The notes below the pieces were generated by a model, which was given only the letters and a program-made list of their open reading frames with translations, was not told the DNA's origin and searched no databases. Shown here one piece after another: positions 30,251-30,962 of a stretch of 38,222 nucleotides of DNA. The translations under genes and the position numbers were made by a program. Position 1 is the first letter of the stretch. Each line of letters opens with the position of its first letter. Source of the DNA: a virus (taxonomy: Duplodnaviria; Heunggongvirae; Uroviricota; Caudoviricetes); IMG/VR virus record IMGVR_UViG_2703719347_000001, positions 1-38,222 of that record. The stretch is one strand, 5' to 3'.

Positions 30251-30639
30251 TCAGGCGGCTGCACCCGCCGTTTTCTCGTACTTACTGATAGTGATCTCGA
30301 CCTTCCCTTCCGGGATAACCGGTCCCCACTCCACCAGCATTCTTTTCACCTGACTGTCGTCTTCCCACACCCCCGCGTGGGTCAGGGCGTCAAACAGCGC
30401 CTTGTTATAGTTGTCCAGATCGCGGATCCTGTTATCCGGAGGAAACAACACGATCTCCACTGAAGCAGGTGCCGACGTTGGTTTCAGCAGACGACGTAAC
30501 TGCTCACTATTGCTGCGCACGCCGCGCTCTGGAATTTTCGCCCCGCCGCGCTTATCAGGCTCTTACCAGCAAACGCCCCTTTGTTGGGGTGTCGCCAGTA
30601 CGTGTTCACGCTGGGCGGGAAAGGCAGGATCAGTTTCAT
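30251..30639 (-). pseudogene. rusA: rusA (Holliday junction resolvase) interrupted by a frameshift near 30520
   Basis: N-terminal 40 codons (MKLILPFPPSVNTYWRHPNKGAFAGKSLISAAGRKFQSAA) in one frame from ATG 30639; remainder (…VEIVLFPPDNRIRDLDNYNKALFDALTHAGVWEDDSQV…) in another frame (track ORF 30251..30520, GTG start). Confidence 0.6.
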
Positions 30640-30962
30640 ACTTTCAGGCCTCTCTCATGTAGCCAGTGGGTTGCACGCAGCCTTGCGTTTTCCTCATCGG
30701 CAAGCAGTGAGCGGATAATCCCGACAGCCTCGCTGTCGTCGTCCTTCACCGCGGTATGAAGCGTTATCCCCCGGGCCACGCCACGCTTTATCGTGATGAC
30801 GCCTTTTTTCTCCAGTGCGCGAAGATGCTCCACCGCTGCATTCACCGAACGGTATCCCAGCATGGTTGCCACCTCCTGATTGGTTGGCGGGAAGCCACGT
30901 TCTTTCTGGTAAGAAATCAGCATATCCAGCACCTGCTGCTGGCATTGAGTTAACGTCGTCAT
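30636..30962 (-). CDS. LexA-like N-terminal DNA-binding-domain protein lacking the S24 peptidase domain
   Basis: [68 protein letters not shown] matches the LexA winged-HTH pattern (LTxRQxxVxxxI...GxPPTxxEIAxxLGxRSxNAAxxHLxALxxKGxIxI...RGIxL); about 108 aa in total. Confidence 0.65.
   Translation of the reverse strand: [108 protein letters not shown]

What the first reader, a model, noticed from the sequence alone, without database searches (positions are those of the whole stretch)
30636..30962. LexA DNA-binding-domain-only protein encoded in the nin-like region
The roughly 108-aa product matches the LexA N-terminal winged-HTH pattern closely (…[36 protein letters not shown]…RGITL) but lacks the S24 autopeptidase domain, so it could not be inactivated by RecA-stimulated cleavage. 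A prophage-encoded non-cleavable LexA-like protein could occupy SOS boxes or phage operators and modulate induction or the host SOS response. It is translationally coupled (ATGA) to the downstream rusA.
Basis: partly seen in the sequence, partly recalled or inferred. Interest (0 to 1): 0.55.

Follow-up and report, generated by a model that had tools for sequence, protein, structure and literature searches.

The report
Prophage-encoded uncleavable LexA look-alike
This prophage gene encodes a small protein that copies the DNA-binding head of the bacterial DNA-damage repressor LexA but lacks the part that lets the cell destroy it; the gene is common, catalogued and well conserved, its function is untested, and it most likely sits on LexA operator sites when the real LexA has been cleaved.

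Summary
Window 30636-30962 (minus strand) encodes a 108-aa protein. Residues 1-68 are a LexA winged helix-turn-helix: Pfam PF01726 E=2.9e-19, 51% identity to E. coli LexA, modelled 1.0 Å from the LexA-DNA crystal structure. There is no S24 peptidase domain. Instead there is a conserved two-helix tail.

Four of the five LexA base-contact residues are kept. The ATGA overlap with rusA is real and conserved across the family, but rusA itself is frameshifted in this window.

The gene is not new as a sequence. It belongs to PHROG 362, which NCBI names "LexA family transcriptional regulator". It occurs in mEp460, SfV, SfII, cdtI and Stx2 phages, and about half of complete E. coli genomes match this gene neighbourhood. 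It is under strong purifying selection (pN/pS 0.06). I found no functional study.

Two comparative results tie the family to the SOS system:
- Phage loci carrying it are about 50-fold richer in canonical SOS boxes than control lambdoid loci. The window has one such box, at a methyltransferase gene start.
- A 40-44%-identical Klebsiella/Enterobacter subfamily sits in an SOS-box-controlled dinI operon in 99 of 105 loci.

Best reading, confidence about 0.4: a RecA-insensitive LexA surrogate. The closest characterised analogue is GIL01 gp6.

The parts
30636..30962 (-). CDS of the 108-aa LexA-like protein (ATG at 30962, TGA at 30638-30636)
   Evidence: ORF list and sequence. Pfam PF01726 E=2.9e-19. 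PHROG 362 full length. RefSeq annotates the same 327-nt CDS in L001. Intact in 81/81 related loci, pN/pS 0.063.
30759..30962 (-). Residues 1-68: LexA-type winged helix-turn-helix
   Evidence: 51% identity to E. coli LexA residues 1-68. AF2 model gives H6-22, H28-35, H40-52 and a beta wing at 56-68. Foldseek best hit is the LexA-DNA complex 3jso, rmsd 1.0 Å over 68 residues.
30819..30848 (-). Residues 39-48, recognition helix [10 protein letters not shown] (E. coli LexA: SPNAAEEHLK)
   Evidence: Alignments. Contact residues S39, N41, A42, E44 and E45 are as listed in PMC3091678; four of the five are kept.
30654..30740 (-). Residues 75-103: conserved two-helix C-terminal tail (helices 75-87 and 93-103), proposed oligomerisation module
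   Evidence: AF2 secondary structure, with a low-confidence linker at residues 72-75. The tail is conserved down to 40% identity relatives, with A97 and L101 invariant. Its function is inferred, not shown.
30636..30639 (-). ATGA stop/start overlap with rusA
   Evidence: Sequence. The same overlap occurs in 81/81 close loci and in 8 of 9 enterobacterial species loci (7 of them at 42-51% protein identity, one Shigella locus at 97%).
30960..30964 (-). TAATG stop/start overlap with the upstream PerC-like (yfdN) gene; a GGGGG Shine-Dalgarno-like run lies at 30967-30971
   Evidence: Sequence read directly and ORF coordinates.
30251..30639 (-). rusA pseudogene (1-nt deletion near 30507)
   Evidence: Two ORFs both match RusA. 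Alignment to mEp460 rusA. RefSeq note 'frameshifted'.
30962..31456 (-). PerC-family (YfdN) regulator gene, immediately upstream in the same operon
   Evidence: Pfam PerC E=1.7e-8 and PHROG 1324. RefSeq yfdN.
26348..26367 (.). The only strong canonical SOS box in the window (CACTGTTTATTTTTACAGTA). It lies at codons 3-9 of the DNA methyltransferase gene (25323-26375, minus strand). It is a candidate target, but most simply a host-LexA site.
   Evidence: PWM score 23.2 bits, against a maximum of 20.2 in 200 shuffles. The box is conserved in methyltransferase orthologues down to 64% aa identity, including phages without a LexA-like gene.
33555..33583 (-). Candidate early rightward promoter (TTGACC-17-TAGCAT) from which the gene would be transcribed
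   Evidence: Consensus scan only. No minus-strand promoter-like or terminator-like site was found between it and the gene. This is weak evidence.

Best explanation
The gene encodes a RecA-insensitive surrogate of LexA.

Proposed mechanism:
- The protein is made from the prophage's early rightward operon (O-like, PerC-like, LexA-like, rusA, KilA-N, DUF968, Q). It therefore appears only after the prophage repressor is inactivated or on infection.
- Its LexA-type wing-helix head, with a recognition helix almost identical to LexA's, binds CTGT-type half-sites, i.e. SOS-box-like operators.
- The conserved C-terminal two-helix hairpin replaces the S24 domain as the oligomerisation element.
- It has no peptidase domain and no conserved Ala-Gly site, so it persists while host LexA is being cleaved.
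- It can then (re)occupy LexA operators. These include the SOS boxes that are unusually frequent in phages of this group (here the methyltransferase box at 26348-26367) and possibly host SOS promoters. The effect would be to time or curtail SOS-controlled expression during lytic growth.

Shown: the domain identity, the missing S24 domain, conservation of the contact residues, purifying selection, the gene's position in the operon, and the association with SOS boxes.

Inferred: the DNA target, oligomerisation, the direction of the regulatory effect, and the physiological role.
For: Domain and structure:
- Pfam LexA_DNA_bind 1-65/65, E=2.9e-19.
- 51% identity to E. coli LexA residues 1-68.
- The model superposes on the DNA-bound LexA structure 3jso at 1.0 Å.
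- S39, N41, A42 and E45 are kept out of the five contact residues.
- No S24 domain; TIGR00498 scores below its cut-off.
- The position equivalent to LexA Gly85 varies within the family (D, G, N or K).

Selection and conservation:
- 81/81 loci carry an intact ORF, with 49 nucleotide alleles and pN/pS 0.063.
- The C-terminal tail is conserved down to 40% identity.

SOS-box association:
- There are 59 strong SOS boxes (8 distinct sequences) in 1.32 Mb around subfamily-A genes. Only 1 occurs in 1.14 Mb around DLP12-type rusA in lambdoid loci that lack the gene.
- In subfamily B, 99 of 105 loci have an SOS box (25 distinct sequences) heading a dinI-orf96-LexA-like-DUF968-Q operon. The box is still present in 9 of the 11 loci that lack dinI. 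The background rate is 0.02 per kb.
- All 13 phage records with the cI module that contains an internal SOS box also carry the gene.
- All 27 phage records with the >=99%-identical methyltransferase box module also carry the gene.
Against: - No binding data exist.
- E44 is replaced by V, and some relatives have altered recognition helices, e.g. SSNAVLLHLR.
- The methyltransferase SOS box is conserved in phages that lack any LexA-like gene. In addition, 5 of 38 IMG/VR loci with that box lack the gene. These boxes are therefore explained by host LexA alone.
- Co-occurrence of the gene and the boxes may reflect linkage within one mosaic phage backbone.
- The loci compared are redundant, and the control is a single other phage group.
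- No operator-like site lies next to the gene in this window.
- The one characterised truncated phage LexA, GIL01 gp6, binds a non-SOS site and activates transcription.
Confidence: 0.4

Rival explanations
1. It is a gp6-like phage-specific transcription factor. Under this reading the LexA-derived head has drifted to recognise a phage site that is not an SOS box, and the protein activates or represses a particular phage promoter, for example one needed for late or moron gene expression. It would have no direct effect on the host SOS regulon.
For: - GIL01 gp6 is a truncated LexA homologue that binds a distinct site and activates late promoter P3. It is encoded in a LexA-controlled early operon, an arrangement mirrored by subfamily B.
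- Position 44 differs from LexA, and recognition helices vary among relatives.
- A new C-terminal module could impose a different half-site spacing or orientation.
- The gene is flanked by other putative regulators, PerC-like and KilA-N.
Against: - The recognition helix is far closer to E. coli LexA than expected for a changed specificity: 7 of 10 residues are identical, including four of the five contact residues.
- No conserved non-SOS palindrome or repeat was found near the gene.
- Q is already present as the late activator.
- gp6 shows no pairwise similarity to this protein, so nothing can be transferred by homology.
Confidence: 0.28
2. It is a DNA-binding partner or regulator of the recombination genes downstream (RusA, DUF968 nuclease). 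The protein would be made in fixed ratio with RusA through translational coupling, and would act in recombination or replication rather than in transcription.
For: - The ATGA overlap with rusA is conserved in 81/81 close loci, in 8 of 9 enterobacterial species loci (7 of them at 42-51% identity), and in mEp390.
- The overlap persists even when the C-terminal tail is replaced by a different domain (L096, Kp4866-6).
- DUF968 follows in both subfamilies.
Against: - The LexA-like ORF stays intact where rusA is frameshifted or truncated. This is the case in this window and in 5 of 81 loci.
- In subfamily B, rusA is absent from most loci (tblastn with the subfamily-A RusA finds none) and is not adjacent where seen (L097).
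- RusA in other lambdoid phages works without such a neighbour: 80 DLP12-type loci have none.
- Nothing in a LexA wHTH suggests junction binding.
Confidence: 0.1
3. It is a decaying remnant of a captured lexA gene with no present function.
For: - It looks like a truncation of LexA.
- HMMER extends the alignment into the LexA cleavage-site region, residues 74-86.
- The neighbouring rusA is a pseudogene here.
Against: - 81/81 loci have an intact 108-aa ORF, with pN/pS 0.063 over 49 alleles.
- The tail is conserved at 40% identity across genera.
- The gene is retained in functional, plaque-forming phages such as mEp460, SfV, SfII and Ayreon.
Confidence: 0.02

Closest known systems
E. coli LexA (TIGR00498; PDB 1LEA, 1JHF, 3JSO), N-terminal DNA-binding domain
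   Same: - 51% identity over residues 1-68.
- Same wHTH fold: rmsd 1.0 Å to DNA-bound LexA.
- Recognition helix SxNAAxEHL, with four of the five base-contact residues kept.
   Different: - No S24 peptidase/dimerisation domain (Ser119/Lys156).
- No conserved Ala84-Gly85 site; this protein has Ala-Asp there.
- It ends in a conserved two-helix tail not found in LexA.
- It is phage-encoded and sits inside an early lytic operon, rather than being autoregulated from its own SOS-box promoter.
GIL01 (Bacillus thuringiensis tectivirus) gp6, a truncated LexA homologue that activates late promoter P3 (PMC6182141)
   Same: - A phage-encoded protein consisting essentially of a LexA DNA-binding domain, so not cleavable.
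- Encoded among early genes.
- In subfamily B the gene, like gp6, lies in a LexA-controlled operon.
   Different: - No detectable pairwise similarity, indicating independent capture from a proteobacterial LexA.
- gp6 is 66 aa with no C-terminal tail.
- gp6 recognises a non-SOS site and activates transcription. The target and direction of action of this protein are unknown.
- The host and the virus type (lambdoid siphovirus versus tectivirus) differ.
PHROG 362 / NCBI 'LexA family transcriptional regulator' (SfV orf42, mEp460 gp46, SfII, cdtI and Stx2a/Stx2c phage homologues)
   Same: This protein is a member: full-length match E=1.8e-59, 94-99% identity to these phage proteins, and the same position between the replication genes and rusA.
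   Different: Nothing substantive differs. In this copy the downstream rusA is frameshifted, and the Dam methylase gene found between perC and the LexA-like gene in mEp460 is absent.
Uncleavable LexA mutants (e.g. LexA G85D, PDB 1JHF; Ind- alleles)
   Same: - Functional analogy: a LexA DNA-binding activity that RecA* cannot remove.
- The window protein even has Ala-Asp at the position aligned to the LexA G85D mutant's cleavage site.
   Different: Those mutants are full-length host proteins that dimerise through the S24 domain. The Asp is not conserved in the phage family, where the position is G, D, N or K, so the resemblance at that site is incidental.

Membership tests
LexA repressor proper (TIGR00498 equivalog) | N-terminal LexA-type winged HTH | tested here: met
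   PF01726 1-65/65, E=2.9e-19. Foldseek best hit 3jso, rmsd 1.0 Å.
LexA repressor proper (TIGR00498 equivalog) | C-terminal S24 peptidase/dimerisation domain with the Ser-Lys dyad | tested here: not met
   The protein ends at residue 108 with no Peptidase_S24 hit. The TIGR00498 match covers only positions 1-90/203 and scores 66.8 bits against a cut-off of 110.95.
LexA repressor proper (TIGR00498 equivalog) | Ala-Gly self-cleavage site in the linker | tested here: not met
   The aligned position is Ala88-Asp89 here, and varies (G, D, N or K) among close relatives and further among distant ones.
LexA repressor proper (TIGR00498 equivalog) | Binds CTGT-N8-ACAG SOS boxes | not testable with these tools
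   Only indirect evidence: four of the five contact residues are conserved, and SOS boxes are enriched in carrier phages.
Pfam PF01726 LexA_DNA_bind / PHROG 362 | Profile match above threshold over the full domain or family length | tested here: met
   69.1 bits against a cut-off of 23.7. PHROG 362 positions 1-106/106, E=1.8e-59.
gp6-type truncated phage LexA homologues (GIL01) | Phage-encoded LexA DNA-binding domain without a catalytic domain | tested here: met
gp6-type truncated phage LexA homologues (GIL01) | Sequence relationship to gp6 itself | tested here: not met
   BLASTP finds no alignment with E <= 100.
gp6-type truncated phage LexA homologues (GIL01) | Encoded in a host-LexA-controlled early operon | tested here: not met
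   In the window there is no SOS box upstream; the only strong box is 4.3 kb downstream, at the methyltransferase gene. The feature is met in the related subfamily B (99/105 loci).
gp6-type truncated phage LexA homologues (GIL01) | Activates a late promoter from a non-SOS site | not testable with these tools
   No expression or binding data are available.

The most novel reading that the evidence does not exclude
A very common family of enterobacterial prophage proteins acts as an uncleavable LexA. The family includes copies in Stx2a and Stx2c phages, and about half of complete E. coli genomes match this gene neighbourhood. Once the prophage is induced, the protein would re-impose repression on host and phage SOS boxes. 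In Klebsiella and Enterobacter phages it would do so together with DinI. Prophages would thereby set the duration and output of the host SOS response, silence LexA-controlled rivals such as other prophages' antirepressors and colicins, and time their own SOS-wired morons.
Probability: 0.25. Interest if true: 0.7.

Novelty: new member of a known kind. Interest (0 to 1): 0.42.

Why it matters
If the protein does occupy SOS boxes, many E. coli, Shigella and Klebsiella prophages carry their own RecA-proof off-switch for the DNA-damage response. These include Shiga-toxin phages, whose induction is SOS-driven.

That would bear on several things:
- toxin and phage output after antibiotic treatment
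- competition among co-resident prophages
- SOS-dependent mutagenesis

The hypothesis is easy to test, because the protein is small, the candidate sites are defined, and cultivable phages (mEp460, SfV, Ayreon) carry the gene. If the protein instead behaves like gp6, it would be a second, independently evolved case of a captured LexA head turned into a phage-specific regulator.

Either way, the present window adds only one ordinary copy of an already catalogued family.

Tried and rejected
1. Trans-cleavage or decoy idea. HMMER aligns residues 78-90 to LexA's cleavage-site region, and many relatives have Ala-Gly there. However, the position is not conserved (G, D, N or K; other residues in distant members). 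I dropped the idea.

2. Methyltransferase SOS box as a dedicated operator of this protein. I rejected this as a requirement. The box is conserved in Citrobacter, Morganella and Providencia phages that have no LexA-like gene, and 5 of 38 IMG/VR loci with the box lack the gene.

3. Homology to GIL01 gp6. None was detectable by BLASTP.

4. Defence-system membership. PADLOC gave nothing relevant.

5. Search for a local operator. No minus-strand promoter-like or terminator-like site and no notable palindrome lies near the gene. Weak SOS-like PWM hits other than 26348 are below chance level.

The tail's role in dimerisation therefore rests on conservation and hydrophobic pattern only.

7. Literature. 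Six searches found no study of the enterobacterial family. The LexA-DNA structure paper was not held, so the contact residues were taken from PMC3091678.

8. The first genome-contig scan with a 12-sequence alignment failed for lack of a conserved stretch. It succeeded with 6 sequences.

The PWM for SOS boxes was built from about 24 E. coli LexA sites recalled from memory. It is a heuristic, although all reported boxes are plain CTGT-N8-ACAG palindromes with AT-rich spacers.

Full report
**What is there**

On the minus strand, an ORF runs from the ATG at 30962 to the TGA at 30638-30636 and encodes 108 aa. A GGGGG run lies four bases upstream of the ATG.

- The ATG overlaps the stop of the preceding PerC-family (yfdN) gene as TAATG.
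- The stop overlaps the start of rusA as ATGA.
- Pfam places residues 1-65 on the whole LexA_DNA_bind profile (E=2.9e-19). The only other hit is sub-threshold.
- The NCBIfam lexA equivalog aligns only to its first 90 of 203 positions and falls well below its cut-off.
- No S24 peptidase domain is present.
- PDB sequence search finds E. coli LexA entries at about 1e-15, and BLASTP gives 51% identity over residues 1-68.
- An AlphaFold2 model (pLDDT 83) shows the three helices and beta wing of LexA's head, a disordered linker at residues 72-75, and two further helices at 75-87 and 93-103.
- Foldseek's best PDB matches are the LexA-DNA complexes, at 1.0 Å rmsd over 67-68 residues.

**Corrections to the observation**

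rusA is a pseudogene here. It is split into two ORFs by a single-base deletion near 30507, relative to mEp460 rusA. RefSeq flags it 'frameshifted' in a 99.9%-identical E. coli chromosome.

The protein is also not a bare domain. Its C-terminal 35 residues (consensus EAVxxIRALLAxExxARxRAxxxLxxxG) are conserved in relatives down to about 40% identity.

**How common and how known**

- The 1.3-kb segment is 97-99% identical in 51 phage records, including mEp460, Ayreon, SfII and Stx2a_1447; tblastn with the protein adds SfV, SfIV, cdtI and fifteen Stx2c phages.
- It matches 2703 of 5426 complete E. coli genomes.
- The protein is PHROG 362, 'transcriptional repressor'.
- GenBank and RefSeq records name it 'LexA DNA binding domain protein', 'LexA family transcriptional regulator', or wrongly 'LexA repressor'.
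- Among 81 related loci, every copy is an intact 108-codon ORF. There are 49 nucleotide alleles and pN/pS is 0.063, so the gene is under strong purifying selection.
- Six literature searches found no study of this family.

**DNA-contact residues**

E. coli LexA contacts the SOS box through Ser39, Asn41, Ala42, Glu44 and Glu45 of helix III (PMC3091678). The phage protein reads [10 protein letters not shown] against LexA's SPNAAEEHLK. Ser39, Asn41, Ala42 and Glu45 are kept, and Glu44 is Val. Most short relatives keep S-x-N-A-A-x-E-H-L, though some do not, e.g. SSNAVLLHLR.

This is the main reason to expect CTGT-type half-site recognition. It is an inference, not a measurement.

**SOS boxes in the window**

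A position-weight matrix was built from E. coli LexA sites recalled from memory. It finds exactly one strong site, CACTGTTTATTTTTACAGTA at 26348-26367. The site scores 23.2 bits, and no shuffle out of 200 exceeded 20.2. It covers codons 3-9 of a 350-aa N6/N4 DNA methyltransferase gene lying between Q and the lysis genes.

The box is kept, with changed spacer bases, in methyltransferase orthologues down to 64% protein identity in Citrobacter, Klebsiella, Morganella and Providencia phages. Three of those phages have no LexA-like gene. In IMG/VR, 33 of 38 loci with this box and enough flank carry the LexA-like gene, and 5 do not. The box is thus a real, conserved LexA site that host LexA alone can explain. 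The phage protein may use it, but the box does not depend on the protein.

**Synteny**

The gene always lies in the nin-like region between the replication genes and DUF968-Q.

- The ATGA overlap with rusA is present in 81/81 close loci.
- It is also present in 8 of 9 loci from other enterobacterial species (7 of them with the LexA-like protein at only 42-51% identity, in Kosakonia, Buttiauxella and Enterobacter; the Shigella locus at 97%), and in mEp390.
- Two phages (Kp4866-6 and an Enterobacter prophage) have the LexA head fused to a different 85-aa C-terminal domain, yet are still coupled to rusA.
- The LexA-like ORF remains intact where rusA is broken. This is the case here and in 5 of 81 loci, so its function does not require RusA.

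**A second subfamily wired to SOS**

A branch 40-44% identical to the window protein has an N-terminal extension and occurs in Klebsiella and Enterobacter phages. It sits in the order SOS box - dinI - orf96 - LexA-like - orf67 - (RusA) - DUF968 - Q.

- Of 105 IMG/VR loci with at least 1 kb of upstream flank, 99 have an SOS box of at least 17 bits within 1.4 kb upstream.
- These boxes comprise 25 different sequences that all keep CTGT-N8-ACAG.
- 9 of the 11 loci lacking dinI still have the box.
- Elsewhere in the same loci such boxes occur at 0.02 per kb.

In that branch, a truncated LexA is therefore co-expressed with the RecA co-protease inhibitor DinI from a LexA-controlled promoter.

**Enrichment test**

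- Within ±10 kb of subfamily-A genes (80 loci, 1.32 Mb) there are 59 boxes of at least 20 bits. They comprise 8 distinct sequences in at least four gene contexts:
  - the methyltransferase gene start
  - inside the mEp460-type cI gene
  - upstream of a KilA-N variant just after rusA
  - upstream of minus-strand morons between Q and lysis
- In 80 loci (1.14 Mb) centred on DLP12-type rusA, none of which has a LexA-like gene, there is a single box.
- In the phage database, all 13 records with the cI-internal-box module and all 27 with the >=99%-identical methyltransferase-box module also carry the LexA-like gene.

Caveats: the loci are redundant, the modules are physically linked in one mosaic backbone, and the control is one phage group.

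**Mechanism proposed**

The gene has no promoter-like or terminator-like site of its own between a candidate pR (33583-33555) and itself. It should therefore be expressed with the early lytic genes.

My best reading, at 0.4 confidence, is as follows. After repressor inactivation, the protein accumulates and binds SOS-box-type operators through its LexA head. It oligomerises through its two-helix tail. That tail has a conserved hydrophobic face (A79, V80, I82, I83, L86, L87, A93, A97, W100, L101) and is not confidently packed on the head in the model. Because RecA* cannot remove it, it would restore or prolong repression at LexA operators in the phage and perhaps in the host.

Rival readings:
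- The main rival (0.28) is a gp6-like factor with its own phage site. GIL01 gp6 is the only characterised truncated phage LexA. It activates a late promoter from a non-SOS site, but it shares no detectable sequence similarity with this protein.
- A role as RusA partner (0.1) fits the coupling, but not the cases with broken or absent rusA.
- A dead remnant is excluded by the selection data.

**Comparison and novelty**

By membership, the protein belongs to Pfam PF01726 and PHROG 362. It fails the LexA equivalog because it has no S24 domain and no conserved cleavage site. By mode of action, it most resembles an uncleavable LexA or, alternatively, gp6.

As a sequence family it is already catalogued, and this window adds one ordinary copy. 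What is open is the function. The comparative links to SOS boxes and to a dinI operon reported here make that function directly testable.

I rate it a new member of a known kind, namely phage-encoded truncated LexA homologues, with moderate interest.

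Noticed in passing
window 30251-30639 (-): rusA is a pseudogene. A 1-nt deletion near 30507 splits it into 51-aa and 89-aa ORFs. The same lesion is annotated 'frameshifted' in E. coli 5CRE51. rusA is intact in 76 of 81 related loci.
   Followed up: yes
window 26348-26367, within 25323-26375 (-): A near-consensus SOS box lies at codons 3-9 of a 350-aa DNA methyltransferase gene between Q and the lysis genes. It is conserved in orthologues down to 64% identity across four genera. This suggests a LexA-controlled phage methyltransferase, or a LexA roadblock in the late transcript.
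   Followed up: partly
L132 8293-10891; L097 9467-11905; L134-L247: Klebsiella and Enterobacter phages carry a conserved operon: SOS box - dinI - orf96 (no Pfam hit) - LexA-like - orf67 - DUF968 - Q. The late antiterminator therefore appears to sit behind a LexA-controlled promoter.
   Followed up: partly
L082 (mEp460) 5546-5565, inside cI-like gene 5082-5729 (-): A 26-27-bit SOS box (TACTGTTTTTAYATACAGTA) lies about 165 nt inside the coding sequence of the S24-type prophage repressor gene. It is found in 25 of 80 related loci and in mEp460, SfII and Stx2a phages. Its purpose is unknown.
   Followed up: partly
L047 10765, L060, L064, L023 12114: An SOS box (TACTGTATTTATGAACAGTG) overlaps the start of a KilA-N-domain gene variant directly downstream of rusA. 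The KilA-N gene in the window (29422-30231) lacks it.
   Followed up: no
L084 (Kp4866-6) about 13450-13920 (-); L096 9998-10453: The LexA DNA-binding head is fused to a different, roughly 85-aa C-terminal domain with no Pfam match, and is still translationally coupled to rusA.
   Followed up: no
proteins P0129, P0130, P0148, P0152 and others: Several database proteins contain two LexA_DNA_bind stretches in tandem. These are possible single-chain 'dimers' of the LexA head.
   Followed up: no
window 30962-31456 (-): The PerC-family YfdN protein has an N-terminal MarR/BilQ-like wHTH signal (residues 8-70) in addition to the PerC region (100-151). Together with the KilA-N protein, it makes three putative regulators in a row in this nin-like region.
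   Followed up: no
L037 14337; L088 3994: SOS boxes lie just upstream of a two-gene minus-strand moron (a 173-aa membrane protein plus a 294-aa protein) inserted between Q and the holin gene in some related phages.
   Followed up: no
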